Assembly: GCA_036785375.1 (NCBI GenBank)
Contig: JAWMAR010000069.1
Coordinates: 6,262,001 to 6,326,000 of the forward strand
Length of the DNA stretch: 64,000 nucleotides
Source of the DNA: Leucoraja ocellata
Taxonomy: Eukaryota
Direction of reading: 5' to 3'
Below the pieces are notes generated by a model that saw only the letters and a list, made by a program, of their open reading frames with translations, was not told the DNA's origin and searched no databases. Both the position numbers and the translations under genes were made by a program. Shown in pieces: positions 321 through 58,840 of this stretch. The stretch's first letter is position 1; every line of letters begins with the position of its first letter.

Positions 321-528
321 AGGTACACAAAAATGCTGGAGAAACTCAGCGGGTGCAGCAGCATCTATGGAGCGAAGGAAATAGGCAATGTTTCGGGCCG
401 AAACCCTTCTTCAGACCTTCTTCAACCCATCAGTCTGAAGAAGGGTTTCAGCCCGAAACATTGCCTATTTCCTTCGCTCCATAGATGCTGCTGAACCCGC
501 TGAGGTTCTCCAGCACTTTTGTCAACCT
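321..528. mobile_element. Fold-back (inverted pair) of Penelope terminal repeat with two hammerhead motifs
   Basis: 321-416 is the near-perfect reverse complement of 433-528, with a 16-nt spacer; each arm contains ctgaagaagggtttc(g/a)gcccgaaacatt. Confidence 0.85.
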
Positions 529-644
529 TATTAAGGGACTTCTGCTCACCCCTGTCTTTATTTGTAATGTCTTACACATGTATGTAGTACTGTCCTTTAA
601 GGAATATTTTAGGATAAAAAGGAACAAGCATCTGAGGAGCCAAA

Positions 645-1851: not shown

Positions 1852-2795
1852 AAGATACAGTTCCCCTGGTCCTCATCTTTTACCCCATCAGCTCCCACAT
1901 CTGATGCATCATCCTCCAACACAATCCCACCACCAGTCGCATTTTCCAACCCCCACTATTTTCTGCTTTCCATTTGAGACCACAACTCATTGTTTGGCTC
2001 ATCTCTTCCACTCAACCCGTCCCATCCCCGGGTATTTTTTCCAGCAACTGCAGGAGATATGACACCTATTCCTACACACCCTCGCTCACTTCCTTCAAGG
2101 GACCCTAGCAGTCCTTCCAGATGAGACAGAAGTTCACGTGCAACCCTCACTAACCTCATCTACTGCATTTGGAACTCCAGATGTGGCCTCCTTTACATCA
2201 GCAAGACCAAGGGTAGACTGGGCGGACATTTTCGCTCGGACTGCTTAGTGCTGCTGGATCTCCCAGTTGCTAACCATTTTAACTCTCCTTCCCATTCCCA
2301 TACTGACCTTTCTGCCCTGGGCCTCCTCAAGTGCTGGAGTGAGGCCTCACGCAAACTGGAAGAAGAGCACCACATATTCCGCCTGGGTAGTCTTCAACCC
2401 AGTGGTGTGAACACTGAATTCTCCAAATTCAAGTAATATTCCTATGACCCCTCCTCTCTTTCCAGTGTCCTACCCCACCCCAGTGCACCAGCCACCACAT
2501 CAACCTGCTCCTTCCCCCTTCTCCACACACTCATCTCCTATCACCGTCCCCTTTATCCTTTCTCTTTTCACTCCATTCAGTCTTCTTCTACCCACATCTC
2601 TCCCTCCCATTTTATATTTCACAACTCTTCATCACCCTTTTGCAAATCACCCCCTCATCTGCATCTATCCATTACTTACCCGACGTTGCCCCATCCACAC
2701 CTCTATTTTCCAGCTTTCTCTATCCCCCCCTCCCCCCCCCCCTCCCCCCCACTCCCCCTCTCCATTATTTTGAAGATTCCCAACCTGAAATGTTG
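1852..2795 (+). mobile_element. Penelope-like retroelement 3' part (degenerate GIY-YIG endonuclease plus terminal repeat)
   Basis: Frameshifted peptides NLIYCI..SRCGLLYI..TK.RLG and DLPVANHFNSPSHSHTDLSALGLLKCWSEASRKLEEEHHIFRLGSLQPSGVNTEF (ORF 2248-2436); C/T-rich 3' region. Confidence 0.9.
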
Positions 2796-3035
2796 TGTTT
2801 AAGAAAGAACTGCAGTTGCTGACAAAATCAAAGGTAGACTCAAAACACTGGAGAAACTCAGCGGGCGAGGCACCATCTTTGGAGAGAAGGAATTGGCAAC
2901 GTTTCGGGTCGAGTCAGAAGAAGGGTCTCCCCCCGAAACATCGCCAGTTCCTTCTCTCCATAGATGCTGCCTGACCCATTGAGTTCCTCCAGCATTTTGT
3001 GTTTTACTCAAAATTCCAGCATCCGTAGTTTCTCA
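2796..3035. mobile_element. Penelope terminal-repeat fold-back pair
   Basis: ctggagaaactcagcggg...ggcaacgtttcggg is inverted relative to gaagaagggtctcccccgaaacatcgcc...gagttcctccagc. Confidence 0.8.
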
Positions 3036-7025: not shown

Positions 7026-7167
7026 GTAGGAAGGAACTGCAGATGCTGGTTTAAACCAAAGATAGACACAAAATGCTGGAGTAGCTCAGTGGGACAGCAG
7101 CATCTCTGGACAGAGGGAATGGATGATGTTTCGGATCGAGACACTTCTTCAGACTCAATATGATTAC
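7026..7167 (-). mobile_element. Penelope-derived mini-element with 11-bp TSD
   Basis: cactcacatgt at 7015-7025 and 7168-7178 flanks the PLE repeat. Confidence 0.85.
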
Positions 7168-7369
7168 CACTCACATGTTAGTCCACCATGTTAACACAAA
7201 GATGACCTCAAAGCCTAATTTTCCTTAGAGATAGGATTTTGTCTCTTTCACCATCTAGATGAAGAAAATCTATTACGTCACTTAAAGGAGACCAGTGAAG
7301 ATCTAATGGGGTCCACACTGATTAAAATATAGTTTTTTATGATTACCCAGTTGGAAGGATCAGAAAATG

Positions 7370-7455
7370 TCCGAAGAAGGGTCTCGACCCGAAACGTTAC
7401 CCATTCCTTCTATCCAGAGATGCTGCCTGTCCCATTGAGTTACTCCAGCATTATT
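7370..7455 (+). mobile_element. Penelope-derived mini-element with 10-bp TSD, hammerhead motif with mutated core
   Basis: tcagaaaatg (7360-7369) / tcggaaaatg (7456-7465); ccgaagaagggtctcgacccgaaacgtt. Confidence 0.8.
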
Positions 7456-8159
7456 TCGGAAAATGACTTTTTTTTCTTGACCCTCTGATTATTACCAGGA
7501 AAACAGTGTGATGGTTAAAACTATTAGCACCATAAGATTAATAAGTAGCTTGGAAGACTTTCTGTTGATTTATTCTTTATTTATGTTTTCACTGTTTTGA
7601 TCGCAGCTGTCTACATATAATTGCTATCATTGATCATTGTTCCTTCCTTTCTGTTGTTTAGTTAGTCCACTATCCAGTCTGCACCATCTTGATTCATGTA
7701 GAATCTTTCACACTAGCTTCATTACTCTTACAACATAGCCAGCTTAACATAATCTAAAAATCAAGGGACGGAATTTTACCATCTTCAGCTGAGTTGGTCA
7801 CATGATTTGATAAAATTGTCGGCCATGATTTTTGTTTCATGAAGTTATGTAGTTGCTGTCATTACTCTCAGCAAATAGGTTTATACTGTATTTCTTTCCT
7901 AAAATGTTATCATGCTTTTATGTCCTAATTGCTAAGTTGTCGTTACTGCTTGATTTCCATGTACAAAAAACACCCTGAAGTATTTCTCGTATCTTCCCTA
8001 CACCCTAACTTTATTTTCGGAAACAATAACAATGTGAAATTATTAGTGAAATTAAATGTGAAAAGTCCATTATTCTGACTGAGGAAAGAGCTTGAAGATG
8101 ATAACTCCTATTCAAAGTCTAAGTGGGTTCCTGGGGAATGGTGTAGAGCAGTAAGGTCT

Positions 8160-8277
8160 AGGTGTAAGAAGGAACTGCAGATAGACACAAAATGCTGGAG
8201 TAACTCAGCGGGATGGGCAGCATCTCTGGAGAGAAGGAATGGGTGACGTTTTGGGTTGGGACCCTCTTTCAGACTGA
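8160..8277 (-). mobile_element. Penelope-derived mini-element
   Basis: aagaaggaactgcag...gggtgacgttttgggttgggaccctctttcagactga. Confidence 0.8.
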
Positions 8278-12097: not shown

Positions 12098-12299
12098 TCT
12101 GTGTAGGAAGGAACTGTAGATGCTGGTTTACACTGAAGATGGATACAAAATGCTCGACTAACTCAGCAGGTCAGGCAGCATCTCTGGAAAAAAGAAATAG
12201 ATGATGTTTCTGGTCAAGTCAGGGTGTCAGTCTGAAGAAGGGTCTCGACCCAAAGGTCACGTATTCCTTTTCTCCAGAGATGCTGCCTGAGCTGTAGTC
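12098..12299. mobile_element. Penelope terminal-repeat fold-back with 11-bp TSD
   Basis: ttaaatgtcca (12087-12097) / ttaaatttcca (12300-12310); inverted arms around cagtctgaagaagggtctcgacc. Confidence 0.8.
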
Positions 12300-20105: not shown

Positions 20106-20499
20106 GATACAGAGGTGGTTTATGTATCCCTGCTGGTGTTAACTTCTCTGATAATTTATGATCATTTTAATCACCAGCTGCCTTTAACACGTTGGGCCCT
20201 CAAATAATTTTTGTCGCGGTTTGAATACTTAAATATCATATATTTCTTCAGGACATTTATACATTTGCCATGGTCCCTGGCGGCTTAACTACCACAATAC
20301 AATCACAAAAGGGACTCTAGATCCAAGCCAGGTTATAAAGTATTGAACGGCAATCCCATCAAATTGCAAATCACAATCTAATTATCCCCACTGGTCAGAT
20401 TACTCTGCTGCAGGGCATAAGCCGTTCTTTTATTGAATATTGAGGTTTGCCAGTTATACTGTACAGGGCAATGATATGCTTCTGTTAATGAGAGGCATG

Positions 20500-20800: not shown

Positions 20801-20894
20801 TTTTGTCTTTGCATTATTATTAATTATTGTTCTAGGGGGAATTATTGTTCCATTAATCATTAATCTAGTGATGGTATTGATAACCTCACTATCC

Positions 20895-20896
<2 letters not shown>

Positions 20897-20940
<44 letters not shown>

Positions 20941-20942
20941 TA
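20897..20942. repeat. (TA)n(CA)n microsatellite
   Basis: Direct reading. Confidence 0.95.
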
Positions 20943-21024
20943 ATATATACTCACATAATATTACTTTTTTGTTATTTATTATGGTGTTTTGGTGTTTATA
21001 GAGTACCATGTTCACATCTCTGTG

Positions 21025-21155
21025 GAGAAAAGAACTGCAGATGCTAGCATATACCGAAGATAAGCACAAAGTGCTGGAGTAACTCAGTGAGTCAGGCAGC
21101 AACTCTGGAGAAAAAGGATGGGTGATGTTTCAGGTCGGGACCCTTCTTCAGACTG
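21025..21155 (-). mobile_element. Penelope-derived mini-element
   Basis: gaactgcagatgct...gtgatgtttcaggtcgggacccttcttcagactga. Confidence 0.85.
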
Positions 21156-21554
21156 AGTTCTCAGCTCAACTACAGCCCGAAGCCTCCATGCTGCAGGCTC
21201 CTATGCCTCGTCGTCAATGTTTACATATCTGTGTGCGTCTGCAAGTGAGAATTTCATTGCCCTGTTTCAGGACTAATTACCCCAAAACACTCTTGACTCG
21301 TACACGTGAGAAGTCAAGGATTTAGTGAGAGTAACAGGAAAGCATAGCTTCCTTTTGCATTTAATACTCACAGTTTTTGAGGGAGTATTTGGGGATGGCA
21401 TTGATAAACCACTATCCATTTGGAACACATGATGAACGGTGAATGATGAATGGTGGAAGGAGTGCACCAGCTCACTAATTGTTCTTGCACCTTCCCTGAC
21501 AGTGGATTCCTAAGGTGGTCTCATCAGCCATTCCAGAGAGAACAAAGTCATCAA

Positions 21555-21848
21555 GTAACCCTTGCTTTCCCTCTCTCCATCCCGTCCCCTTCCCGGTTCT
21601 CCAACCAGTGTCAGTCTACATTTTCCTTTATCTCTGTTTGCTTTGTTGTTACCTACTCCCAACTCACAATGATCTATTCTACATTTTCCTTGATCTCTAT
21701 TCCCTTTGCCCTGTTTTCACACCTTCACACTTCCTTATCTATCTATCTCCCTCCTCTGAAAAAGGATCTCGACCCAAAACATCTGCCATTCCTTCTCTCC
21801 AGAGATGCTGACTGTCCCACTGAGTTACTCCAGCATTTTGTGTCTCTC
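21555..21848 (+). mobile_element. Penelope terminal repeat
   Basis: Starts caagtaacccttgc (endonuclease stop), C/T-rich, ctgaaaaaggatctcgacccaaaacatc; reverse-complement similarity to 23582-23900. Confidence 0.85.
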
Positions 21849-22059
21849 CTCGCTCTCGAGGAGTTGGTTAAAGAGAAGGCTTTGTGCAAGGTTGTGGCAG
21901 CTGATTTAAGAAGCATTCAAAATCTTGCAGTGCGTGAATTCACAAGGAATCAGTCCTCTTGCCCCCACCCGAAATAATGTCTGAAAAAGGGCCTTGAGGG
22001 TTCCCGACCTAAATGTCACTTTAGAAATGTTGCCTGACCCACTGAGTTACTCCAGTATT

Positions 22060-22310
22060 AAGTGTTAATCCTATTAAATCTTTCACCTCTCACGTTAAAC
22101 CTTTGTCCTCTAGTTCTCGATTTCCCTACCCTGGGCTAAAGTCTCTGTCCATTCGCCCTATCTATTCCCCTCAAGATAGTATATGCCTCTATTAGATCGC
22201 CCGTCAGCCTCTTGCACTCCAAGGACTAAAGTGATAGCCCCTGCATATAATTCAGGACCTCGCGTTCTGATAACAGCCTCATAAATCTTCTCTGCACCCT
22301 TTCCAGCGTA
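22060..22310 (-). mobile_element. CR1 LINE fragment
   Basis: ccctatctattcccctc...ataaatcttctctgcaccctttccagc is the reverse complement of CR1 LERVQRRF. Confidence 0.8.
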
Positions 22311-22719
22311 GAGGCAAAGTAGTGGGAGTCATTAAACATTTCCACCAATGTGCTAGCAGTAGGTCGATGGGCTGAACAGCCTCCTCCTTGGCTTCGTTTA
22401 CTACCCTCCTTTTCACAACCATGCGTTCTGTATTATTGGTTTAGTTGCACACTGACATTCCCTCAAAATAAATAAGTATAACGATTGGTAATCCATACTT
22501 TAATTGCCGCTTAATGTTGCCACTTTGAATGTTCAATGCCAATTATTGACGTGATTCTCCACTCAATTTTGAAAGCTATTTAAAGCATTAAATTGTCAAC
22601 GAATATGAAGAGGAATTGGAATAAGTGGTGTCTGCCGAAGAAAATAAATGTGATTTTGAACATTCGTTGCCTCCATTTATTGATTCAGTAAACTAAAATA
22701 AGCAAATCTGCAAAGTATG

Positions 22720-23180
22720 TCAGGAGACACAAGGAACTGCAGATGCTGATTTACGAAAAAAAAAGAAGCGCAAAGTGTTGGAGTAACTCAGTGAGAGGCA
22801 GAATCTCTGGAGGACGTGGATAGGTAACATTTTGAGTTGGGACTTCTTCAATCCGATTGTAATAGGTGGGGTGGGGTGAGAAATCTGGAAAAAAGAGGTG
22901 GAGGCAAGATAAAGCCTGGGGGGGGGGTGGTATTCGCAGATGGGTGGACCAAGGCTGAAGATGAAGAGACAAAGGGTGTAAGATAAGGAGAGAAGAAGTG
23001 TGAAATGTGAAGCCAGAGGAGGGGATACAGGTCGGAGGGGTGGAGGAAGGGGGGGGGGAGAAAAATTGGGTGGGGAGAAAAAGTGGGATAAAATAGTGTA
23101 CACCCAGATTTGGCACAAGAAAGAAAGTGGGTTGGAAAAGAATGGGATTAGTTATCTAAAATTGGAAAATTCAATGTTTA
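22720..23180 (-). mobile_element. Penelope terminal repeat
   Basis: PLE repeat end plus G-rich tract ending attggaaaattcaatgtt (NIEF.N). Confidence 0.75.
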
Positions 23181-23234
23181 AATTCAGGTATGTTAGTAGT
23201 TTGATGAAGTTCCCGCACTGCTTGAAGGAGTACA

Positions 23235-23552
23235 CTTTAGTCTTTGGACTTTAGACAAAAGCACAGAAAAAGGCTCTTTAGCTCACCGAGTCGATCACCC
23301 TGTACACCAGCGACCAGCAATCACCCTGTACACACACACTAACCTATACACTCGGCACAATTTATAATTTTATCCCTACAAACCCATATATCTTTGGAGT
23401 GTGGGAGGAAACCGGAGCACACGGACAAAATCCTTGCAGTCACAGAGAGAATGTACAAATACCATGCAGATAGCACGCATAGTCAGGATTGAACCCAGGT
23501 GACTGGTGCTGCAAGGCAGCTGCTGAACTGCTGCGCCACTGTGCCACCCCTG
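23235..23552 (-). mobile_element. HE1-type V-SINE
   Basis: V-domain and head reverse complement. Confidence 0.9.
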
Positions 23553-23581
23553 TACAGTTCCAACAACATTCAAAACACGCT

Positions 23582-24298
23582 GAAGATAGAGACAAAAACC
23601 TGGAGTAACTCAGCGGGTCAGACAGGATCTCTGGAGAAAAGGTGACGTTTCAGGTCGAGACCCTTCTTCAGACTGAGAGTCTGCAGAAAAGGAAACGTGA
23701 GATATGGACGATGATGTAGGGGAATATAGAACAAATGAATGAAAGATGCAAAAAAGTAACAATAATAAAGGATATAGGCTATTGTTAGCTGTGGCTCAGG
23801 TGAAAATGTTTATGGACAATGAGACCCAACAAGATGACTTTGAAGCTGGTATGACGGGTAGGGGGAGGGATGGAGAGACGGGGGATGTAAGGGGTACTTG
23901 AAGTTAGTGAAATCAACATTCATACCACAGTGTTGTAAGTTGCCCAAACAAAATATGAGATGGTGTTCCTCCAATTTGCGTTTGGCCTCACTCTGACAAT
24001 GGAGGAGGTCGAGGACAGAAAGGTCAATGTGGGAATGGGAAGTAGAATTAAAGTGTTTCGCAACTTGGAGAACAGGTAGGTCCAGGAAGACTGAGAATAG
24101 GTGTTCAGCGAAACGATTGCCCAGTCTACGTTTGGTCTCGCCGATGTATAAGAGTCCACATCTTGAACCACAGATACAGTAGATGAGGTTGGAGGAGGTG
24201 CAAGTGAACCTCTGCCTTAGCCTGAAAGGACTGTTGGGGTCCCTGGACAGAGTCAGGGGATGAGGTATAGGGACAGGTGTTGCATCTCCTGCTTTAAG
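23582..24298 (-). mobile_element. Penelope-like retroelement 3' part with GIY-YIG endonuclease
   Basis: ORF 23810-24391: QRFTCTSSNLIYCICGSRCGLLYIGETKRRLGNRFAEH...VAKHFN...LEEHHLIFCLGNLQHCGMNVDF; followed by terminal repeat with hammerhead motif. Confidence 0.95.
23644..23671 (-). ncRNA. Minimal type I hammerhead ribozyme motif (Penelope-associated)
   Basis: Reverse complement reads CUGAAGA A GGGU CUCG ACCU GAAA C GUC. Confidence 0.7.
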
Positions 24299-24299
24299 G

Positions 24300-24730
24300 G
24301 GAATTAAAGTGCTTGCTGCTTGATTGTCACCCCATCTTCTACTTATACACCACTCTCTCCACCACAGTCCGATCGTGTCTCCTGTATGCATCGTCTACAA
24401 AGGCAACTCACCAAAGCTTCTTCACCTGCACCTCCCAAACCTGCACCTTCTGCCAACAGGACAGACAAGGGCAGCGGTCTGATGAGAGTGCTTCCAACTG
24501 CAGGATGGATTTCTTTTAAGCCACACATCATCCTGATATGAGAATCCATCACTCTTTACACTGGTCATCGAACCACTCGCCTAACAGCACCACAGGAATA
24601 TTTTTCCCAAAACATAGCAGTTGTTCCTTAAAGAAAACAGCTCACCATCACCTTCTAAAGAACAACTTGGTGAAAGCAATAAATGCTGGCCTTACAATTG
24701 ACGTCCACTTCCTCTGACTGAATAAATAAA
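24300..24730 (+). mobile_element. Old CR1/L2-group LINE 3' end
   Basis: cagctcaccatcaccttct...caataaatgctggcc...gaataaataaa; related copies at 27345-27592 (+) and 30665-30740, 31335-31390 (-). Confidence 0.65.
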
Positions 24731-25406
24731 CCACAAAAGTTATGGAGAACTATTCTTTTACAAGTCAGAGTCTTTAGGGACCCACTGTAATGAAAGCTGC
24801 CTCATACATTGCACTTTCAATTACTTTCCTAATAATCACAGTTTCTGCTTAATTGTAAATTCTTTCTGGTCGTGAGTGATTGCAATTAAGAGCACAAGAG
24901 CACTAGACTGTACATAATTACCTTCAATGTGCAAAATAAATAACCACTTATTTTTATTTCAATGGTGTTCTTGATTGCAAAGAACTGCGATCTGAACGAA
25001 CATGCAAAATATGATCGATCCACAGTTAATTATCGCGGTCTGTTCACAGAAACAATCCCAGCACTGAGATTCTCTTCAACAACATGGCAAAGAGCTGTCA
25101 ATGCAAAAATCCTCATTGTTTAATCAACATGTGTTTTGTACATTGTTAAAAGAATGTTGATAAATAAACAAGGATTTGGGTGAAGAGCTATCAAGTTGTG
25201 AAGGAGCTGGACTGTCATTAGGAAATGTGAATGGAGAAATTGCAGTGTATGATATGGTTCGGTGAATGCTCAATGCAATAATCGGACTAACTATTTATTG
25301 TTTTTGCAAAAGCATTGGGTAATAACATATTCATAGATTTACATTGACATTAAATGGCCAAGAGAAAGTCTCATTTGAATATTTTGAAAAAAATAAAAGA
25401 TTTAAA

Positions 25407-25540
25407 AGGGTGGCACAGTGGCGCAGCGGTAGAGTTGCTGCCTTATGGCGCTGGAGATCTGCCTTCAATTCTGACAACGGGTGCTGTCTGTATGTAGTTT
25501 GTACTTTCTCCCCAAGACTGCGTGTGTTTTCTCCGGGTCA
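25407..25540 (+). mobile_element. HE1 V-SINE 5' half
   Basis: gggtggcacagtggcgcagcggtagagttgctgcc... Confidence 0.85.
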
Positions 25541-26124
25541 ATGCAGCTCACCCCCTCCATGTCACAGGTCACCGTATAGAAGAAGGTTGGAAATGGTTGG
25601 AACGAGATTGTAGCAGCACTGTGTATTTTAGACAGGCTTTGGTCATAACACTAACTGCAGCAATATTTTAACGCACAAAACATAGGTGCAACACAAACTC
25701 TAGACATGGGTATTGCCTAACAGATTGAAAATCTGCTGCAAAAAATGATTTACATCAACTATCTCATGAAATGTTACAGTTTGGAAATAGGTCCCTCAGC
25801 CCATCAAGCCCATGACAATTATCCAACGTCTACTATTAATGATTCCTCAGGTTTGCCCTGTTATTTCTCCCAAGATTTCCATCATCTGCTCTAGATCCTA
25901 CCACTCATCAACACACTAGAGGTGATTTACAGTGGCCACCTGCATGTCTTTGGGATCTGGGAGGAAATCAGAGCACCAGGAGGACCCTCATTAAGTCCAA
26001 GGGGGAACGTGTCAACTCCACACAGGTAGCACCCAAGGTCAGGACTGAAGCTGCTTCACTGATACTCAGAAAAACATTCCTGCCAACCATTATGTCTCAA
26101 TACAAGGTTTCAACCAAAACACAA

Positions 26125-26370
26125 GTTCATAAATTCATAAATTATAGGAATAGAATTAGGCCATTCAGCCCATCAAGTCTACTCTGCCTTTCAATCTTGG
26201 CTGACCTATCTTTTCCTGTCAACCCCATTCTCCTGCCTTCTCCCCATAACCCCTGACACCCATACTAATCAAGAAACTGTCAATCACCATTTAAAAAATA
26301 CCTATTGGCTTGGCCTCTCCTGCCCCCTGTAGCAATGAATTCCACAGATTCATCACCGTCTCACTAAAGA
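26125..26370 (-). mobile_element. CR1 LINE 3' end
   Basis: gaattaggccattcagcccatc...aaccccattctcctgccttctcccc...gaattccacagattcatcacc. Confidence 0.85.
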
Positions 26371-26557
26371 CAAAATAACTTAAGACAAAATTCCCCCCAA
26401 AACATCACCCATTCCTTTCCAACCACAGATGCTGCTCAACCATTGAATTCCTCCAGCAGATGGCATGTAGTTCCACCAACCACACCACTGTACTTTTCTG
26501 ATTTCCACACCCAATAAACCAAAGCTTAAATAGATTTATTTTCATAGTGAGTCATGT

Positions 26558-26868
26558 GGCGCGACATGGCAAAGCAGTAAAGTTGCTGCCTAACAGAATC
26601 AGAGACCTGGGTTCGATCCTTACTATAGCTGCTTGTCTGTACTGAGTTTGTGCGTTCCACCCGTGACATGCATGCGTTTTCATCCAAGATCTTCGGTTTC
26701 CTCTTACGCACCAAAGACGTACAGGTTTGTAGGTTAATTCGCTTGGTATCATTGTAAATTGTCCCTAGTGTGGATAGTGTTTGTGTGCGGGGATCGCTGG
26801 TTGGTGTGGACTTGATGGGCCAAAGGGCCTGTTTCTGTGCTGTATCTCTAAATTAAACTAAACTAAAT
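26558..26868 (+). mobile_element. HE1-type V-SINE (full length)
   Basis: Head with ggttcgatcc B-box, V-domain, (ctaaa)n tail. Confidence 0.9.
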
Positions 26869-27222
26869 ACGAGAAAGATTGGGTACATCACCTTACACCT
26901 GCAAATTGGAGATCCCCATGAGAAGATGTATTTCAGAGAGAGGTCTGAACTCTGCAAGTGAGGTGAAACTCAGCAGGAAAAACAAAAGCTTGTAGCGAGC
27001 TATTAAAGTAATTGGAGTAATTTAAGTAATTGGAACACGGATTAATTTCTCCATGTGTTACAATTAGTGCAGGTGAACGGCAAAGCAGAATGTGAGGGAC
27101 TTTTAAGCATCATCTGGATCTCCCTTCCTGATTACTGGTGCTCTTCATTGGTGATAATGATCAGAGTGTGGAGAGAGTCACTGCTTAGGCAGGCTTAAAC
27201 TTAAATACTTGCGGGAGGACAT

Positions 27223-27337
27223 AGATGTAGAAACATCACCTTTTTCTCCAGAGATGCTGCCTGACCCGCTGTGTTACTCCAGCACTCTGTTTCTATCTGC
27301 GTTATAAACCTGCATCTGCAGTTTTTTTGTTTCTACA
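27223..27337 (+). mobile_element. Penelope-derived mini-element with 7-bp TSD and short inverted end
   Basis: aggacat at 27216-27222 and 27338-27344; 5' tgtagaaac is the inverse of 3' gtttctaca. Confidence 0.75.
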
Positions 27338-28489
27338 AGGACATCAAAAGCATAGGAACACCGCACGGGGCACATTGCCGTCCAAATCACGCACCATGTT
27401 GACTTGGAAATATATCACCTTTCCTTCACTGTGCTGGAGCAAAATCCTGGAATTCCCTCGTTAACAGTGATATTGAGATGCCCAGTCTGGCAAAGAGTGG
27501 AGTGGTTAAAGAAGGCAGCACAATGTCACCTTCTTTGGGGCATTTAAGGATGAACAATTAAATGTGAAGCCCACATCCCTTGAAAAATAAACAATCTCCA
27601 TCAATTCCTGACTGCAGGAAGCATCTCTGGTCCTTTCCCACTCTCCTGACCATTGACACTGACAGATTTGCATGTTGCCCCACAACACCAATCCCCATTC
27701 ATTGTTAAAGTCCATAGGAGATCTATGTTAAAACTGCTTCAGCCTGCATTGTGCAATGGTATCCAGGCCTAATTCATCATTGGCTGCAAATAAGTTCTCA
27801 GAAGTTTCAAGTTTTGGAATCACAAAAGCAAGTTCAAATCGATTGAAGAACTTGCACAAGATTAACAGCTCTGATTTCCAATTAAATATGCGGCTATGAG
27901 CAATCAGGATTAATAATCAAACACGGTCACTGATTTACTAATTTGCTCTCCACTGGGAGGTCGACAACATGAACCACGTTTACTATACTAAAGACATTGG
28001 AAATTGCTCAATTCTAAATAAAAATGCAACTGGGGCGAAATTGTACCGTGCAATATTAGCATGGACATAATTACATTTTGAGCAACTTTTTTGATGTGCA
28101 AATTTGTTGGTGGAATTAACTCTTTGGGGGTGAATTTGGTCTTTGCAGTATCTGCTCTCTTTGTGCTACAAATGTCTTAGAGCACAAAACATCTCCAGTG
28201 TTATTCACACAAATTAGTGGGCTGAATGGTGTTGGACACTTTTCATAAGGACCAGGCAGATCAGTGATAAACAGATGTATAAGTTCATGAATAATGCTTT
28301 ATCTAGACAGTACATAGATAGGAAAGGTTTTGAGGGATATGAGCCAAACACAGGCAGCTACCACAAATGTAGATGGGGCATCTTAGTCAATATGGGCAAG
28401 TTGGGCTGAAGGGTCTTCCATGCCAACTCTATGACTCTAAGTCTTAATACTCAGTGCTTCAGGGTACAAATTCATCCACAGCCACTGTT

Positions 28490-28782
28490 AAGTTTAGTTT
28501 GGTGTAGTTTAGAGATGCAGTGTGGAAACAGTTCCCTTCAGCCCATTGAGACTGAGGCAACCAATGGTCACCTGTACACTAGTTCTAACCTACACATGAG
28601 GGACAATTTACAGAAGACAATTAACCTCCAAGCCTGCACGTCTTTGGAATATGGGATGAAACTGGAGGATCCGGAGAAAACCCATGCAGTCGCCGGGAGG
28701 ACCAACAACCTCCGTATATAAAGCACCCTTAGTCAGGATTGAACCCGGCTTTCTGACGATGTAAGACAGCTATTCTACCGCA
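28490..28782 (-). mobile_element. HE1-type V-SINE
   Basis: Tail, V-domain and head reverse complement. Confidence 0.85.
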
Positions 28783-28904
28783 GGGAATTTCCGGGATTTA
28801 GCAGCCTCCAATAGAAGAAGTGTTTGTTCAGGAGTGAGGATTTCAAGGCTGGGTGCTGCAGAGGGAGGATAGGAGGTGGAGGATTTGTGGAAGGGTGGCA
28901 CTGA

Positions 28905-29230
28905 TTTTAGTTTAGTAGTAGTTTAGAGATGTAGCGTGGAATCAGGAACTTTGGCCCACTGAGTCCGTGCCGACCAGCGATCCCCGCACATTAACGTTAC
29001 CCTACACACACTAGGGACAATTTACACTTGTACCAAGCCAATTAACCTACATATCTACACGTCTTTGGAGTGTGGGAGGAGACCGAAGATCTCGGAGAAA
29101 ACCCATGTAGGCCACGGGGAGAATGTACAAACTCCATACAGACAGCACCTATAGTCGGGATCGAATCCGGATCTCCGGCGCCGCAAGCGCTGTATGGCAG
29201 CAACTCTACCACTGCGCCAACAGTGCCGTA
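28905..29230 (-). mobile_element. HE1-type V-SINE (full length)
   Basis: Tail through ggatcgaatcc...ggcagcaactctaccactgcgcca. Confidence 0.9.
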
Positions 29231-31702
29231 GTGATGATCATAGTGGGAGATGATTGGGATTGGGAGTGGGGAGGGAGGGGAGGTTGGGACAATCAGTGTG
29301 GCTGCAGATGCCTTGGAGAAAAGATTGGGAGATGGTGGTGGTCAGAGAGAAGATAGTGAAAAAGGTTGCTGAGGAAATATTCAAGTGGAACAGCTAATGC
29401 ACTGGAAGAGGTTAACAATCAGTAACAATGAAAACTTAAAAAGGACTCTTGAGAGGAGGTGGTGGACACTTTAGTTCTATGGGAATTATCCAAGTTTAGA
29501 TACTGCCCAAACTGGCTTCAACGCTGTGGAAACTATCCTGAAAGAGTGTGATGGCTGTTTGTCTCTCCACGGATCTTTCCAATCTCCCACTGGAGTTACG
29601 AAGGGAAAAATCACACAGATTTTATTGAAACCTCTGCAAAAATGACTGAGTTCAGATAAAGGTGACACCATCATAATCAAACGGCAGCCGAAGCTTGTAG
29701 AACATCCTTTATTGCTTTCAGGGCTGAAATTAAACCTAGAATTCAAAATGATTTTAAAAATGCAAGTGTCTCCTTTATTGAATTGTTCTTTCTTTAGCTA
29801 GAAGGTGTTGGGGGCAGAGAAGATCCAAGCAGCTTCAGAGCTTTAAGAAATTATTTTTTGCTTTCTAAATTTATTAGTAAAAAAAATGAATGTCACAGAA
29901 ATGATTGAAATGAATCCCCAGTCCACAGTATGCTGTTGCTTTGGAGGAAGGGATTCTGGATTGCATGTCTACCCATTCATATTCATATAAATAAATCACA
30001 ACGAGACACATCAAAGCGTGAAAGCTGTAATATTTTATGGTTAGTCACCGTTGATCAGAAGCCTCGCTGCTCCACGAACAATGTCATTCCCCATAAAGTT
30101 ATTTTAAATGATGTTCCAGGAAATACAATTGCACAGAATCTCACAGCACACCACTTGTTTCACTTGTGATTCTCTTTCATTCTAAGATTCTGATCATACG
30201 AGGCACAACTTCAATGTGTTACCTCCCTCATGTTCCTCTTTGATGCCAGATCTAAATGTTAACATGTAGGCCCAATCGATGATTGTGGTCTGTGAGAGAG
30301 ACCATCACCAGGGTAATTATCAAAGACTATCATGGGGACCATGCCTGGAATTCCCATATTGTATTTTTTTAATAAGTTATTGGAGTAGAATTAGGCCATT
30401 CGACCTATCAAGTTTACTCTATTTCTCGATTTCAAAGGAGAATGAGTTTTGGAAAATCTTGTTGAAGGAAAATTCATAAACAAATGTTGGCAAATTGGAT
30501 GAACAGAGAACTGTTTCAGTGTTTCAACAAAGGCAAAGTTTCTGCCACACGACAACATTAGTTAGAAAGAAAGAGCCCGCCACTTACTGACAAAGTAGTC
30601 TCAATAATGAAATGTGACAAAGATCCATCACCATCATTTAAAAGAAAATCTTTCTTTGGAATGTAAGCAAGAGATTTATTGCTCTTTCCTAGTTTCGTTT
30701 GAAAAGAAGATGGCGAGGCACTTTCTCCATCCATTACCTTCTGCTGGTGAAGGTATAAGGAAGCTTTTCAAGATTTATACCCAACGATGAATAAGGAATA
30801 AGTATATTTCCAAAAAAGAGAACAAAGTGTCGCGGTCCTACAATCAAATTATCAATTTCCAAGTTAGAATAGTGTTTGACTAACAGAATAAATTGAACAT
30901 GATGGGGTTCTAATGCAGCTGCTGTTCTTGCCCTTTGTGGTGGTGTGGGAGGCCCTGTTGGTCTCGACATGATGAGCAACCTCAGCCATGGAACACAAGA
31001 CATGGAAGGGCCATAAATTGTTAGCATGGCCAACGGCATACCAGTTGAGTGGGTTGTTTTGTGCTGGAAGAGTCCACCTCCATAAATGTTGCTGCAGCTC
31101 CAATTTTCCTGGCAACGTGTCCACATGAGTGTCAAGGCTCTTGTTTAAAGAAAGGAAACCATTTCACATCAAAATAAAATATCTCGAGATATATCATTGC
31201 GTTAATATTGGGGCTTTAGCTTTAAAAATATATTTTGGAAGAAAATGTTAAAGCCTTCTGAGCAGAGAAAGCATTGGGAGAATTAGGATTCAAATACAGA
31301 CAAATATTTCTTTAATGTGTGTTTTTTTAAAATCTGGGCCAGCATTTATCATCTCATTAATTGCCCTTGAGAAAGTAGCAGTGAACAGTACTGAGTATGA
31401 CACTATTGAATGTATAGAGAATATGTGAAGAATTTTTGCACAGTTTACATTTTGTATATTTATTTTATTCTGAATAAAGTTTAATATTCAAAAATTTAAA
31501 ATCCCGCACTGCAGGGACAAGTATAATAGCACACATTGCTACTCCCACCTGCAGTCCCCTCTCACCCCCTCAGTTTAAACACCATCTTAACAATGGTATA
31601 TTGCTAACTCTCCATTAGATTAAATACCAAAGCTCCCTACCCAGTAACATTGAGATTACCTTCATCGTAATTGTTGAAGAAAGTGCACTCACCACTACCT
31701 TC

Positions 31703-32260
31703 TCAATGGGGGGAGAGGATGGAGTCGAGGTATGTGGAAATAAGTTCGGTAGGACACGAACAGGCAGAAACAGTGGGTCTGCCAGGACAGTCAGATTTGT
31801 GGATTTTGTGGAGAAGGTGAAATAGGGCCATGCGGGACTGGGGAACGATGAGGTTGGAGGCTTGGGAGGGCAGGGAGCTGGAGTTGATGAAGTCAGTGAT
31901 GGTGCTGGAGATAGTGGCCTGATGCTCGTCTGTGGGGTCATGGTCCAAGGATAAGTAGGAGGAGGTGTCTGAGAGTTGGCGCATGGCATCTGCCTTGTAG
32001 AGATCAGCGCGCCAGACTACCACGGCACCTCCCTTGTCGGCGGGTTTGATCACCCAGTCTGGGTTGTTGCAGAGTGAGTGGAGGGCTGTACGTTCAGGGG
32101 GGGGAGAGGTTAGAGTGAGACAGGGGAGTGGAGAAGTTGAGGCGGTTGATGTCCCGCTGGATGTTTAAAATAAAAAGTCTAAAGCCGGTAGATGGCCATG
32201 AGGGGTGGCCCAAGAGGAGGGGGTCCGTTGGAGATGGGAAAAGGGGTCATCACTGATGTG
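31703..32260 (-). mobile_element. Penelope-like reverse transcriptase N-terminal fragment
   Basis: IKPADKGGAVVVW..DLY..A.RQLSD.SSY..L..DPT...KIHK..CPGRP.VSAC..PTELIS.YLD.IL.P, the characteristic PLE DKG motif. Confidence 0.93.
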
Positions 32261-35473: not shown

Positions 35474-35900
35474 ATCTGTAAATGTTGAACTAACCCTTAA
35501 GGTGTAATGATTCAAAAAAAAGTCCAACCCCATGTGTTCATCCATTATTTTCTCTCTAGTTGCTCAAGAATAGTATTTCATTACATCTGCCAGTTCATGG
35601 CTCACTCCTATTGCTGAACAATGAAATAAGACCAACAGCAGCTTGTATTTTAATAACGCTTTTAAACATAATCAGACACTCCAGGACTTTCACTGGACTA
35701 TTTCTGAAGCAAATTTCAATACAGAACCGTTGTAAAAATTGCTTGAATAAAATAAAATGCAAGTAGTTTTGATATGGCGTATGCTTTAGGAAATAAATAC
35801 CTAGTATTGGGAGCCTGGGAGAAAATAATGCCTCTTTTGGTTTACAATGAATTGAGAGTGTACAGAGACAGATATACATATCTGTGACCATGAAGTTTAT

Positions 35901-35993
35901 GTCTGAAGAAGGATCTCGACCCGAAACGTCACCTATTCCTTTTCTCTAGAGATGCTGTCTGACCCGCTGAGTTACTCCAGCTATTTGTGTCTA
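35901..35993 (+). mobile_element. Penelope-derived mini-element
   Basis: gtctgaagaaggatctcgacccgaaacgtcacc...gagttactccagc. Confidence 0.85.
35903..35930 (+). ncRNA. Minimal type I hammerhead ribozyme motif
   Basis: CUGAAGA A GGAU CUCG ACCC GAAA C GUC: core intact, one stem II mismatch. Confidence 0.7.
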
Positions 35994-36384
35994 ACTGTGA
36001 TCACATAGCTAAGTAACCAGTCTTGTTTTGACCCATAAGGTGAGGGTATTTACAGGCAGAGATTATCCTAGTCTTCTGGACAGAGAAGACAGAGACCCAA
36101 TGAAGGTGAACTAAACACTCCCTCCAGGATATGCATGGATGCTGAAGGCAAGGGACTGGAGAATAGGCTGAGCGACCTGCCTGTGAAGGTGACAGATCAC
36201 TGGCTCGTGATTGTTCATAGAGAGGTTCACAGGAATATTTATTATAATAAATGGTCACATCTAAATAAAGTGAATTAAAAAGCATTGAGGTATTATATCA
36301 ATAATGTTCAATTTCTTGGAAAATGTGGTAATTTAACACCACCGATTCTGAATGTGCTGGATTAGTGGTGTTTTGTTGTATATC

Positions 36385-36705: not shown

Positions 36706-37356
36706 TCTGGATTGTCTCTATGCTCCTCAGACTAATATTACATCTCCCGCAAGCATCGGTTGCAGCCTTTGATTCATTAAGCCAACTACACCCAATTTTC
36801 TAGACCAGTTCCCATGTCATTGAAATGACTGTGGGCTTTCTTATCCCATTGATCTGACTTACCAACACACTCCACTCATCCCTGTAAAAGCTGTCAGTTG
36901 TGCCCAAGGTACTTGTGGAAACAGAGATCTGTAGGTTCTCTTTCCCAGTTCTGTCAATGAGTTTTCAACTTGGAACATAAGCTCTATTTTTCTTTCTGTA
37001 GTGGCTGCCTGATTTGCTGAGTGTTTTCAGCATGTTTTATGTTTTTAGTTTAGATTTCCATCATCTGCAGTGTGTTTTATAATCGCAAATATGTTGTCAA
37101 ACTGGAAAGGGTGGAGGGAAGATTAATGTGGATGGTGCCAGGACTTGAGGGCCTGAGTGCAGGAATATGAGGGGGGATTTTAGAGAGGTGAATTAAGTCA
37201 TGAGAGAAATACATCAGGTACTATCGCAACATTTAAGAAACATTTGGACAGGTACATGGATGAAACAGATTTAGAGAGATACTAGACTGAGACCCGTTGG
37301 GTCCCATATTCACATGATTTATCTAAAATCAATATACAGTGCAAACAGGAAGTTAT

Positions 37357-37535
37357 CAAGTGCAGTTTCCTACCACTTCAAGCAGGGTGCAAGGCCACCA
37401 AATTCAAGTGCAGTTTCATGCCACTTCAAGCAGGGTGCAAGGCCACCAAATTCAAATGCAGTTTGATACCATTTCATGCAGGGGGCAAGGCCACCACATT
37501 CAAATGCCGTTTTTTACCATGTCAAGCAGGGTGAA
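37357..37535. repeat. 48-bp minisatellite (about 4 units) inside the Helitron
   Basis: caagtgcagtttcctaccacttcaagcagggtgcaaggccaccaaatt repeated. Confidence 0.9.
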
Positions 37536-48410: not shown

Positions 48411-48493
48411 TTATCTTTTTCCAGACAGGTGATGATGATAGACAAAAGGAATTACTGTGTCAAAAATTGAGGAAAACTGACAGCAGGAGAGAT

Positions 48494-48713
48494 AGACCCA
48501 AAATGCTGGAGTAACTCAGCGGGACAGGCAGCGTCTCTGGAGAGAAGGAATGGGTGACGTTTCAGGTCGAGGTCCTACTGCAGACTGAAGAAGGATCTCG
48601 ACCCATAACATCACCAATCCCTTCTATCCAGAGATGCTGCCTGTCCTGCTGAGTTACTCCAGCACTTAGTCTCTATCTTCGGTGTAAACCAGCATCTGCA
48701 GTTCCTTCCTACA
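48494..48713. mobile_element. Penelope terminal-repeat fold-back with 10-bp TSD
   Basis: caggagagat (48484-48493) / caggagggat (48714-48723); arms meet at cagactgaagaagg. Confidence 0.85.
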
Positions 48714-52859: not shown

Positions 52860-53069
52860 AATGTTTAAGAAGGAACTGCAGATGCTGGAAAATCGAAGGT
52901 AGACAGAAATGCTCGAGAAACTCAGCGGGTGAGGCAGCATCTATGGAGTGAAGGAAATAGGCAACGTTTCGGGCCTGAAGAAGGGTTTTGGCCTGAAATG
53001 TTGCCTATTTCCTTAGCTCCATAGATGCTGCCTCACCTGTTAACTTTCTCTAGCATTTTTGTCTACCTT
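52860..53069. mobile_element. Penelope terminal-repeat fold-back with 14-bp TSD
   Basis: acttttttatcatt (52846-52859) / acttttttattatt (53070-53083). Confidence 0.85.
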
Positions 53070-53490: not shown

Positions 53491-53590
53491 GGTCTGAAGA
53501 AGGGTCCCGTCCCGAAATGTCGCCTATCCATTTTCTCTAGAGTTGCTGCCTGACTCGCTGAGTTAATCCAGCACTTTGTGTCTATCCTTG
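53491..53590 (+). mobile_element. Penelope-derived mini-element
   Basis: ggtctgaagaagggtcccgtcccgaaatgtcgcc. Confidence 0.8.
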
Positions 53591-54059
53591 AGATCTGATT
53601 GATACTTTTGTGCTTCAGGCTGTTTTATTGGTGTTGTCAGTTTACAGAGAACATCGTCAGTGGGAAACCACAATCGTGTAATTCTTAACACAAACCTTCC
53701 AATGGCAAATCTTGGTGGGGATCGAGTCTTATTTTCTTACTCTAATGAGACCATTTGTCTTGCATGGGACAAACATCTGATAACGCAACACATATAAAGG
53801 GGAAACATTACTTTAACGTACTGGCAAACATTATCTGAAGTAAATTCATCAAAGAGAAAAATATTGGCATTGCAATCAATACTGACATTAGAACACACTT
53901 ACTGCAAAGAGAGATATTGAAAACATTTTGGAAATGTGATGAAATGCCAATGTGTGACACAATGCCATACACATTTTGACGAAATATTTTATGTGGCTCA
54001 CATTGGCAAAAGACGATTTTTCCAATTTTTGACCCAAGTTCTGTCCCGAACTGTTGGCT

Positions 54060-54385
54060 TGGGCAGTGGCACAGCAGTAAAGATGCTGCCTTACAGAGCT
54101 AGATACCCGAGTTTTATCCAAGCTATGGATGCTGCCCGTATAGAGTTTGTACTTTTTCCCTGTGACTGCATTGGTTTTCTTCGGGTGCTCCAGTATCCCC
54201 CCACATTCCAAAGATGTACAGGTTTGTATATTAATTGGCTTCTGTAAATTGCCCCTAATGTGTAGGACATAGTGTGAATGGCGTGTGTCCATATTCTCCA
54301 GAGATGCTGCCTGATTTTCTGAGTTACTCCAGCACTTTGTGCCATTTTGTACATTCACCAGCATCTGCAGTTTTTTGGTTCTTCA
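54060..54385 (+). mobile_element. HE1 SINE followed by Penelope repeat end
   Basis: HE1 to about 54275, then ccatattctccagagatgctgcc...catctgcag. Confidence 0.8.
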
Positions 54386-54577
54386 AATGGAGGAAAGATA
54401 TGACAGAGGGTAGAAAGCAGTGGAGATACAAAGGGATAAGAGTGCAAAGCTAAAGTTAGTGGCAATATGCCCATAGGATGCAAAGGATGGGACTGGCAGG
54501 AGTACAATTGGAAGAAGCAGAATCATTATCTTAAACCAAGAGCTGGCTTGAGAAGCTAATGCAAATGGTCAAAAAAG

Positions 54578-55290
54578 GAAGGACAAGGACAAAGGACAAA
54601 GGACGTTTATTGTCACATACACCAATTGGTGTAGTAAAATTTGAGTTGCCATTGCAGCACACAAATAAATATAAAACACAACAATAAACAATAAAAACAT
54701 CCCCCCACAATGGTTCCCACTGTGAGAGAAGGCAGCAAAGTCCAGTCCTCTTCCTCTGTGTTCACCTGTGGTCGGGGCCTATTTGAGGCCTCCGCAGTCG
54801 CCGCAACGGTGGCCCGATGTTTCAAGCCCTCTTGCTGGATGATGGAGCTCCGGCATCGGAAGAACACTCTTCAGTGGCTTGGAGTGTCTGGAACAGCTGC
54901 TTCCCACTGGAGACCGCGGCTCCCAAAGTCCATAGCCCGCACTTGTCGGAGCTCCAACACTGGCGATCTCTGCGAAAGATCCCAGGCTCCGTGGTGTTTA
55001 AAATCAACACCGCCGCGGCTGGACGCTCCGCAGACCCCACAGCTGCACGATATTGGAGTCGGCGGTCTCAGCACTCCGGAGCTTACCACACAGCGGCCCT
55101 CAGTAAGGCATCGCCCGCTCCACGATGGTGTTTCAGCGCTGCGCCTCTGCCGAAGCTGAAGATTCTGGCTGGTCCCGGCAGGTAACGCCGCTCCAGTCCA
55201 GGTGATAGGCCGCAAGGAGAGGGCGAAGATGCGGCTCAGAGGAAAGACGCATTTCCGACCAGGTAGGGACTGAGAAAAATAGTTTCTCAG
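54578..55290 (-). mobile_element. GC-rich non-autonomous retroelement
   Basis: Tail tgtgacaataaacg + (tccttt g)n; shares blocks with 41655-42578 (cgcagtcgccgc...ggtggcccgatgtt, ggcatcgcc...tttcagcgctg). Confidence 0.75.
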
Positions 55291-55414
55291 TTATCATTCG
55301 AGATTATGTTGAGTTTCATGGTCTTCACAACCTCTTAAAACTGACTACAGTCACATTCCAAACACCATACACATATTTACAATGAAGAAACAGATCATTC
55401 TGCCCAATAGATCC

Positions 55415-55690
55415 ATGCTCTGTGTGTATGAAAATGTATGTATTTGAGAATGTGAATAAATATATGTGACCAAATATCTGTCTGGAGTTGTGTGCATGTA
55501 TGTGTGTGTCTGTGTGTTTAGATGAGAATGTTATTGTGTATGTGTGTGTTCAGAGGTGTGTGTGTATATGTGAGGGTGTGTGTGTAGTATGTGCATGTGT
55601 CATGTGTAAGTGCTAATGTGTATGTGTTAATGTGTGTGTGTGCGTGCACAAGCACACATATGTAGTAGTATATGTGCACTCATGGAGGTA
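55415..55690. repeat. Degenerate (TG)n-rich simple repeat
   Basis: Direct reading. Confidence 0.85.
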
Positions 55691-55715
55691 TTGCATTCTT
55701 GAATGTGTATTAAAT

Positions 55716-55842
55716 GTATAAGAAGGAACTGCAGATGCTGGTTTAAACCGAAGATAGACACAAAAAGCTGGAGTAACTCAGCAGGACAGACAGCATCTCT
55801 GGAGAGAACGAATGGGTGACGTTTTGGATCGAGACCCTTCTG
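55716..55842 (-). mobile_element. Penelope-derived mini-element
   Basis: aagaaggaactgcagatgctgg...gggtgacgttttggatcgagacccttct. Confidence 0.85.
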
Positions 55843-58621: not shown

Positions 58622-58840
58622 GTCTGCAGATGCTGGTTAATAAAACAAGACACAAAGTGCTGGAGTAACTCAGTGGGTCAGGCAGCATCCCTGGAGAACA
58701 TGGATACTGTAGGTGACATTGAGCAGAAGAAAGGTCCTGAAATGTCACCTATCCATGTTCTTCAGAGATGCCGCCTAGCCCGCTGAGTTACTCCAACGCT
58801 TTGCATTTTGTTTTGAAAACCAGAGTGTGCAGTTCCTTGT
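58622..58840. mobile_element. Penelope terminal-repeat fold-back
   Basis: Inverted arms ctgcagatgctgg...gaacatggata / tatccatgttc...gttactcc. Confidence 0.8.

What the first reader, a model, noticed from the sequence alone, without database searches (positions are those of the whole stretch)
35901..35933. Minimal dimer-type hammerhead ribozyme repeated about 25 times in the window
Seen: CUGAAGA + extra A + 4-bp stem II with tetraloop + GAAA + C + GUC/GUU. Stem II varies while mostly staying paired (GGGU-CUCG-ACCC, GGGU-UUCG-GCCC, GGGU-CCCG-ACCU). Stem III is only the self-complementary ACGU, so it can form only between two copies, and stem I is just 2-4 bp. Best copies: 35903-35930 (+), 23644-23671 (-), 58492-58519 (-). 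Many others have CpG decay in ACGU. Known: PLEs carry minimal type I hammerheads that cleave as dimers. Inference: a long pre-mRNA through this region would hold many same-strand copies able to pair in cis, a possible dispersed self-cleavage system; most copies are probably dead.
Basis: partly seen in the sequence, partly recalled or inferred. Interest (0 to 1): 0.7.

Follow-up and report, generated by a model that had tools for sequence, protein, structure and literature searches.

The report
Decayed Penelope ends with minimal hammerheads
These roughly 25 repeats are clipped, mostly mutated tail ends of a known kind of jumping gene (a Penelope-type retrotransposon) that carry its known tiny self-cutting-RNA motif; they decay like neutral DNA and show no strand bias inside two large genes, so they are likely inert rather than a host RNA-cutting system.

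Summary
The motif is real: 25 copies span it (14 +, 11 -), none in shuffles. It is the minimal type I hammerhead at the 3' end of a Neptune-like Penelope element (RT + GIY-YIG), a kind described by Cervera and de la Pena 2014. The genome holds 164,224 core-plus-ACGU copies (control 70), so the window's three are exactly average, and none of them is fully intact. The proposed dispersed cis-cleavage system is not supported: cores decay as fast as the tail (6.5% vs 7.7%, p=0.21); in 600 kb of neurexin introns intact copies are not depleted on the transcribed strand (32 sense vs 27 antisense); the dimer fold is about 18-22 kcal/mol above competing folds; copies do not pile up at the cut site; no host exon was found. 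If the ribozyme cuts, it likely does so in the element's own tandem RNA, helped by protein. This scan has noted the same family many times (154 notes, 60 hammerhead notes in this genome). Ordinary; interest 0.13.

The parts
35903..35930 (+). Minimal hammerhead motif (C3 to C17), core and ACGU intact, A.C mismatch in stem II, stem I 2 bp; the only core-plus-ACGU copy on +
35899..35996 (+). Whole solo insertion: 3' end of the Penelope pseudo-LTR (motif plus about 65 nt of tail), starting a few bases before C3
   Evidence: nhmmer E 1.5e-27, model columns 5-101; blastn
23644..23671 (-). Minimal hammerhead, core and ACGU intact, G10.1.U11.1; lies behind the GIY-YIG frame of a 5'-truncated element
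23813..24394 (-). Decayed GIY-YIG endonuclease end of the Penelope ORF, same strand, upstream of the hammerhead at 23671
   Evidence: Pfam GIY-YIG E 0.0032, 18.2 bits, below the curated cut-off; 150 scored relatives in the genome
58492..58519 (-). Minimal hammerhead, core and ACGU intact, G10.1.U11.1, no stem I (copy starts at the motif's edge)
321..529 (.). Head-to-head inverted pair of young-type ends (GGGU-UUCG-GCCC), both with ACAU instead of ACGU
2832..3006 (.). Head-to-head inverted pair
12137..12294 (.). Head-to-head inverted pair
48490..48679 (.). Head-to-head inverted pair, both cores broken
52896..53069 (.). Head-to-head inverted pair
58648..58802 (.). Head-to-head inverted pair, degraded
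7059..8277 (.). Three further solo ends (7059-7158 -, 7368-7455 +, 8179-8277 -); each has a broken core or lost ACGU
21057..22857 (.). Four further ends (21057-21157 -, 21755-21848 +, 21979-22071 +, 22772-22857 -); none with core plus ACGU
53491..55841 (.). Three further ends (53491-53588 +, 54295-54341 +, 55751-55841 -)
2032..2460 (+). Second decayed GIY-YIG fragment of the same element family
   Evidence: tblastn 53% identity, E 4e-34
31706..32164 (-). Fragment of the N-terminal RT region (DKG motif) of the same element family; used to find near-intact elements

Best explanation
The copies are short, 5'-truncated 3' ends of an endonuclease-bearing Penelope-like retrotransposon that carry its minimal hammerhead motif, and once inserted they decay like neutral DNA and are likely inert. 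Shown: the motif sits 119-124 nt behind the stop of near-intact RT + GIY-YIG frames, and young elements form tandems with two motifs 0.9-4 kb apart on one strand. Inferred: any cleavage happens in such a tandem element RNA, where two ACGU palindromes can form the shared 4-bp stem III, and it probably needs the element's protein because only about 8 base pairs hold the dimer together. Inferred: most insertions were copied from uncut RNA, since they start at or ahead of the motif, not at its cut site.
For: Link to the element: 19 of 30 GIY-YIG loci have a sense motif 111-244 nt behind (two of the 19 are the window's own locus and its 98% duplicate); 7 of 8 long frames that reach the GIY-YIG motif have it 119-124 nt behind the stop; Pfam RVT_1 and GIY-YIG on L101. 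Tandems: L112, unit 3,952 bp, 99% identical; L254, two intact young motifs 934 nt apart. Neutral decay: non-CpG core 82/1253 = 6.5%, tail 270/3511 = 7.7%, p=0.21, composition-matched expectation 7.0%. No strand bias in 600 kb of neurexin introns: fragments 166 vs 160, core+ACGU 32 vs 27, fully intact 12 vs 11 (genes identified). Fold: dimer -4.2 to -7.6 kcal/mol for four pairs and +7.7 for the 35903 homodimer, against cofold minima of -14.6 to -28.8. Constraint in source lineages: variants at the free N7 (2,533) outnumber those at A6 (1,400) and A9 (1,100). Starts: 4 of 579 fragments begin at the cut-site column, like its neighbours. Literature: low activity even as dimers (PMC4209133); an anole PLE hammerhead cuts only with PLE protein and is not needed for insertion in vitro (PMC11167929).
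Against: No cleavage was measured for this family. Stem I is only 2 bp and no compensatory covariation was found, so the motif may be too weak to cut at all. The N7 excess could partly reflect mutational context. The intron test covers two genes and excludes only a depletion above about 30% (sense/antisense ratio 95% CI 0.69-2.06). G16.2 is lost more often (43/121) than other CpG guanines (82/372; p=0.004), which is unexplained. Folding energies ignore tertiary contacts, Mg2+ and proteins.
Confidence: 0.82

Rival explanations
1. One reading: dispersed same-strand copies pair in cis in long host pre-mRNAs and cut them.
For: Copy number is very high (164,224 core+ACGU, one per 21 kb); same-strand intact pairs 317-1,332 nt apart occur in neurexin introns; the repeat is abundant in RNA-seq on both strands.
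Against: No sense depletion in neurexin introns; neutral decay; only one (+) or two (-) usable copies in the window; dimer fold about 18-22 kcal/mol above competing folds; 12 of 36 window fragments lie in inverted pairs that would pair with their own antisense partner; no host exon found.
Confidence: 0.04
2. The motif no longer cuts in this lineage; it is kept in source elements for another reason (promoter or transcript start, protein binding, a stop for reverse transcription) or as a passenger.
For: Stem I only 2 bp; stem II probability at most 0.09 in monomer folds; copies start at the motif's front edge, with no peak at the cut site (421 at the site, 177 and 574 at neighbouring positions); no pile-up of read ends at the site (weak); Naiad PLEs thrive without canonical hammerheads (PMC8557442).
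Against: All catalytic positions, the extra A, G10.1-C11.1 and the palindrome are kept in both subfamilies; subfamily changes fall on the loop, on C17/U17 and on wobble-compatible sides of two pairs; N7 varies about twice as often as A6 or A9.
Confidence: 0.3
3. The copies are non-LTR retrozymes: short tandem units that self-cleave into circles and spread on their own.
For: Retrozymes derive from PLE pseudo-LTRs and were reported in one chondrichthyan (bioRxiv 10.64898/2026.07.22.740005).
Against: No tandem array of the motif in the window; copies are solo or head-to-head (143 solo, 81 inverted, 29 with upstream pLTR of 253) and are colinear with the autonomous element's 3' end.
Confidence: 0.03

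Closest known systems
Minimal hammerheads (min-HHR) of metazoan Penelope-like elements, Cervera and de la Pena 2014 (PMC4209133; read main text parts 1-2 of 4 and supplement file 2 parts 1-2 of 3)
   Same: CUGANGA-H core, extra nucleotide between 9 and 10.1, G10.1-C11.1, GAAA-C-GU-H with palindromic 15.2-16.2 and no loop 3, place in the pLTR behind an RT-GIY-YIG ORF, mostly single dispersed copies, some close pairs on opposite strands. The Acropora Neptune example (GGGC UAAC GCUC, CGUC) is the nearest shape.
   Different: Helix I is 2 bp (low end of their range: Culex, some Drosophila, Oikopleura); helix II is 4 bp, shorter than their fish and frog examples; copy number is far above their 4,000 (coelacanth) and 9,000 (Xenopus), though counted with another descriptor; no cartilaginous fish row in the parts I read.
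Neptune-clade EN+ PLEs (as defined in Craig et al. 2021, PMC8557442; passages read)
   Same: RT with DKG motif and YIDD, C-terminal GIY-YIG, CX2-5CxxC linker (CKKCNTC / CNRKRCNTC), 5' truncation, partial tandems, inverted 5'-truncated partners, hammerhead near the 3' end.
   Different: Clade placement not tested by tree; Nematis shares the linker motif.
Poseidon PAc hammerhead of Anolis (Frangieh et al. 2024, PMC11167929; passages read)
   Same: Minimal PLE hammerhead; there it cuts only with PLE protein, is dispensable for insertion in vitro, and leaves no RNA-seq ends at the site.
   Different: In PAc the ORF starts inside stem II; here the next ORF starts about 160 nt behind the motif (L112).
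Small PLE hammerheads that cleave as dimers (Lunse et al. 2017; not held, title and a review's summary in PMC6765202 only)
   Same: Palindromic very short stem III, dimer dependence.
   Different: Could not check whether this family is among their variants.

Membership tests
PLE minimal hammerhead (Cervera 2014) | Core CUGANGA ... GAAA ... NUH | tested here: met
   164,224 exact matches vs 70 in the reversed control; 10 of 25 window copies
PLE minimal hammerhead (Cervera 2014) | [quoted passage not shown] | tested here: met
   A in 128 of 135 copies
PLE minimal hammerhead (Cervera 2014) | G10.1-C11.1 closing helix II | tested here: met
   Majority state and in all young elements; lost by CpG decay in two of the three best window copies
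PLE minimal hammerhead (Cervera 2014) | Palindromic 15.2-16.2, no helix III in the monomer | tested here: met
   ACGU in both subfamilies
PLE minimal hammerhead (Cervera 2014) | Short helix I | tested here: met
   2 bp, GU/AC or GU/GC; 2-bp examples are in their Fig. S3
PLE minimal hammerhead (Cervera 2014) | Lies in the pLTR of an RT-GIY-YIG element | tested here: met
PLE minimal hammerhead (Cervera 2014) | Covariation in helices across families | tested here: inconclusive
   Only one-sided wobble changes between two subfamilies; shuffles match the observed score; 37 vs 27 control for double changes at two inner pairs; no other family with longer stems stood out in 100 listed of 5,743. Too little diversity within one genome.
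PLE minimal hammerhead (Cervera 2014) | Self-cleavage as dimer, not as monomer | not testable with these tools
   Needs in vitro assay; indirect signs absent
EN+ PLE, Neptune clade | Single ORF with RT and C-terminal GIY-YIG | tested here: met
   L101 815 aa: RVT_1 E 4.7e-6, GIY-YIG E 9.8e-4, both below curated cut-offs; motifs
EN+ PLE, Neptune clade | CX2-5CxxC zinc-finger-like linker between RT and EN | tested here: met
   Read in L101 and L102 translations; feature as stated in PMC8557442
EN+ PLE, Neptune clade | Partial tandems and inverted 5'-truncated partners | tested here: met
   L112, L254; 81 of 253 fragments in inverted pairs
EN+ PLE, Neptune clade | RT phylogeny groups with Neptune | not tested
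   No reference set fetched
Non-LTR retrozyme | Tandem repeat with at least two consecutive hammerhead-bearing units | tested here: not met
   None in the window
Non-LTR retrozyme | Circular RNA of unit length | not tested
   No suitable library laid

The most novel reading that the evidence does not exclude
With one core-intact copy per 21 kb and young tandem pairs under 1 kb apart inside introns, the element's own protein, when expressed, could chaperone such pairs into double hammerheads and cut nascent host transcripts: a retrotransposon-switched, genome-wide RNA cleavage network, too weak or too tissue-restricted to leave a strand bias above 30%.
Probability: 0.04. Interest if true: 0.75.

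Novelty: new member of a known kind. Interest (0 to 1): 0.13.

Why it matters
As it stands it adds a very high-copy, 2-bp-helix-I member to a known family and two negative tests (neutral decay, no intronic strand bias) showing that hundreds of thousands of such motifs are tolerated in a vertebrate genome. The role of PLE hammerheads is still open in the literature (PMC8557442, PMC11167929), and the near-intact tandems found here (L112, L254) are ready substrates for testing it. If dispersed copies did cut host transcripts, it would be a new layer of RNA turnover, but the evidence points the other way.

Tried and rejected
Rfam: no hammerhead family matched the window; its miRNA hits are inverted pairs and simple repeats. 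Host gene: Pfam on the 150 least repetitive of 284 window frames and 98 of 424 frames in 100 kb of flanks gave no host exon (three hits at E about 0.008, below cut-off; one LINE ORF2); small exons would be missed. Sequencing runs: no RNA holder listed for window 20001-30000, which says nothing on expression; no RNA reads could be laid on the window itself, so whether it is transcribed is open. RNA reads on the young element L102 (four runs of a coded organism that may be only a relative, 4-8% of laid reads 99% alike or better) showed no pile-up of ends at the cut site, but these libraries are fragmented cDNA. Cut-site starts: of 30 loci fetched from the 421 matches, most are inverted pairs, internal deletions or mutated motifs; about three distinct ones look like true solo starts; the recurring CUUCAG|ACCC joint is explained by a 2-nt microhomology. 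No Rfam RNA (such as U6) in 20 of those 30 loci. The peak at position 34 is an artefact of an indel between subfamilies and was dropped; 1 of 67 copies there starts at the cut site. A 3' splice-site-like tract 20 nt behind the cut site was noticed; no matching joint is among the 15 shown of 441; not pursued. The intron test used 600 kb from two minus-strand genes; the planned further 600 kb, including a plus-strand gene, was not obtained. Paper searches for hammerhead + Penelope + shark (1 paper, word used for the shape) and + elasmobranch (0) found no description in cartilaginous fish; Lunse 2017 and supplement file 1 of Cervera 2014 could not be read and may bear on this.

Full report
Observation. 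The sequence at 35903-35930 (+) is CUGAAGA-A-GGAU-CUCG-ACCC-GAAA-C-GUC. A mismatch scan with the three named copies finds 26 hits in the window and none in three block shuffles. The motif is the head of a repeat of about 100 nt. A profile built from 39 genomic copies finds 36 fragments in the window, 25 of which span the motif, 14 on + and 11 on -.

What it is. The window lies in a 3.44-Gb assembly (G000:C69). The host is a vertebrate by its neurexin exons; that it is a cartilaginous fish is recalled resemblance and earlier scan notes, not tested here. One 28-mer occurs 21,383 times and the pattern core + 13 nt + GAAACGU-H 164,224 times against 70 in the reversed control. That is one per 21 kb, 3.05 expected per 64 kb, and the window has three. 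In 500 kb from other contigs there are 165 fragments, 102 spanning the motif, about 1.1 and 0.7 million if scaled. The assembly holds duplicated stretches (L031/L032; paired Laminin-G hits), so totals may be inflated while densities are not.

The parent element. A decayed GIY-YIG frame (23813-24394, -) lies just upstream of the copy at 23671. Of 30 genomic loci found with it, 19 have a sense motif 111-244 nt behind (two of them are the window's locus and its duplicate). A second fragment (31706-32164, -) led to near-intact elements. Of 20 fetched, 8 have a frame that reaches the GIY-YIG motif and 7 of these have the motif 119-124 nt behind the stop. L101 matches RVT_1 and GIY-YIG and shows DKG, YIDD and a CX2-5CxxC linker, which Craig et al. 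give for Neptune and Nematis (PMC8557442, passages). L112 is a tandem with a 3,952-bp unit, 99% identical; L254 has two intact young motifs 934 nt apart. Of 253 unbiased fragments, 81 lie in head-to-head pairs, six such pairs in the window, a known PLE trait. Two subfamilies dominate: GGGU-CUCG-ACCC with GUC|A and the younger GGGU-UUCG-GCCC with GUU|G.

Is the motif under constraint? In inserted copies, no: non-CpG core positions differ in 82 of 1,253 cells (6.5%), invariant tail positions in 270 of 3,511 (7.7%; p=0.21). In source lineages, probably yes: single variants at the free N7 number 2,533 against 1,400 at A6 and 1,100 at A9, and subfamily changes keep pairs by wobble. True covariation was not found: on 28 copies the covariation score equals the shuffled mean, double changes at two inner stem II pairs give 37 matches against 27 in the control, and no family with a longer stem stood out among 100 listed of 5,743. 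One result does not fit simple decay: G16.2 is lost in 43 of 121 copies against 82 of 372 at three other CpG guanines (p=0.004); it is not strand-specific in introns.

The cis-dimer idea. A + transcript through the window would carry one usable copy and a - transcript two, 35 kb apart. The double-hammerhead fold scores -4.2 kcal/mol for that pair, +7.7 for the 35903 homodimer and -6.1 to -7.6 for three intact pairs, against co-folding minima of -14.6 to -28.8; stem II has probability at most 0.09 in monomers because the purine core pairs with the pyrimidine tract behind the cut site (secondary-structure model only). No host exon was recognised in 150 of 284 window frames or 98 of 424 flank frames, and the window's transcription could not be examined. 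As a direct test I took 600 kb between colinear exons of two alpha-neurexin genes. If intact copies cut pre-mRNA, they should be rarer on the transcribed strand. They are not: fragments 166 sense vs 160 antisense, core 43 vs 40, core+ACGU 32 vs 27, fully intact 12 vs 11. The interval excludes a deficit above about 30%; both genes lie on the minus strand of their contigs.

Traces of cutting. Following leads from earlier scan notes, I asked where copies begin. Patterns forcing a start at the cut site give 421 matches, against 177 one base earlier and 574 one base later, and most of 30 inspected are inverted pairs or small deletions. By profile, 4 of 579 fragments start at the cut-site column, like neighbouring columns, while 68 of 143 solo fragments start in the first 8 columns, at the motif's front edge. 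RNA-seq reads laid on L102 cover the motif's tail thousands deep on both strands with no pile-up of ends at the site (weak, as the libraries are fragmented cDNA from a possibly related organism). By contrast, a different repeat in the same window starts exactly at the predicted cut site of an HDV-like fold, which shows what such a trace looks like.

How it most likely works. Shown: identity, position in the element, tandems, neutral decay, no intronic strand bias. Inferred: cleavage, if any, occurs in tandem element RNA through the shared ACGU helix and needs help from protein; most insertions come from uncut RNA. This follows Cervera and de la Pena (PMC4209133; main text parts 1-2 of 4, supplement file 2 parts 1-2 of 3), who found no monomer and low dimer activity, and Frangieh et al. 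(PMC11167929, passages), whose anole hammerhead cut only with PLE protein and was dispensable for insertion in vitro. I put cleavage in tandem RNA at about 0.6 and inertness of dispersed copies at about 0.93.

Novelty. The architecture matches the published consensus point by point, including the extra A and 2-bp helix I examples. Two paper searches found no description in sharks or elasmobranchs; a 2026 preprint reports hammerhead retrozymes in one chondrichthyan (10.64898/2026.07.22.740005; parts 1 and 3 of 5 and passages); Lunse 2017 was not available. Within this scan the family has been noted 154 times in at least 19 genomes and hammerheads 60 times in this genome. Verdict: a new, very abundant member of a known kind; interest 0.13.

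Noticed in passing
window 5808-5974 (+): A separate SINE-sized repeat of about 165 nt whose first base is G1 of a CPEB3/HDV-like ribozyme fold with almost no P4 (Rfam RF00622, 24.2 bits, below the 35-bit cut-off). 3,571 first-look candidates; 33 of 38 other scored matches start at 5800-5810; 9 of 10 copies inspected start GGGGTC after unrelated flanks, some with target-site duplications. Earlier scan notes call such elements mini-Vingi derivatives (not tested here). More interesting than the finding itself.
   Followed up: partly
window 35931-35955 and all copies: A pyrimidine tract ending in CAG or TAG about 20 nt behind the cut site, and CUGAC/CUAAC just ahead of the motif, resemble a 3' splice site and branch point; PLE pseudo-LTRs often hold introns. 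The same tract is predicted to pair with the ribozyme core.
   Followed up: no
L102:4175-4221: RNA reads leave the element at a few fixed 3' points, about 52, 60-63 and 98 nt behind the cut site, like the 'tail' ends that mark reverse-transcription starts in the anole PLE.
   Followed up: no
G000:C1:48563 and C1:3012193: A variant with intact core but a stem II of only two pairs (CAGGU-CACG-ACAC) occurs twice among the first 100 matches; possibly a separate subfamily.
   Followed up: no
L154:8808-8940: A 66-bp tandem array made of the tail of the repeat, starting at GAAAC and lacking the CUGAAGA half of the core.
   Followed up: no
window 648-1026 and about 25 other places (for example 23311-23551): A second abundant SINE-like family; a V-SINE-type element from recall, not tested.
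   Followed up: no
L061:2001-5813 (-), 4-8 kb before the window: Intact 1,271-aa LINE ORF2 (AP endonuclease + RT).
   Followed up: no
window 10869-11660: Overlapping long frames in a stretch not matched by other fetched loci, with no Pfam match; the + frame has a GTVDGKH motif that looks like a decayed Harbinger-type transposase (recalled, untested).
   Followed up: no
window 37356-37533: 48-bp minisatellite, 3.7 copies.
   Followed up: no
G000:C136 (L032, L317): A 95-98% identical second copy of the window's region, probably the other haplotype.
   Followed up: no
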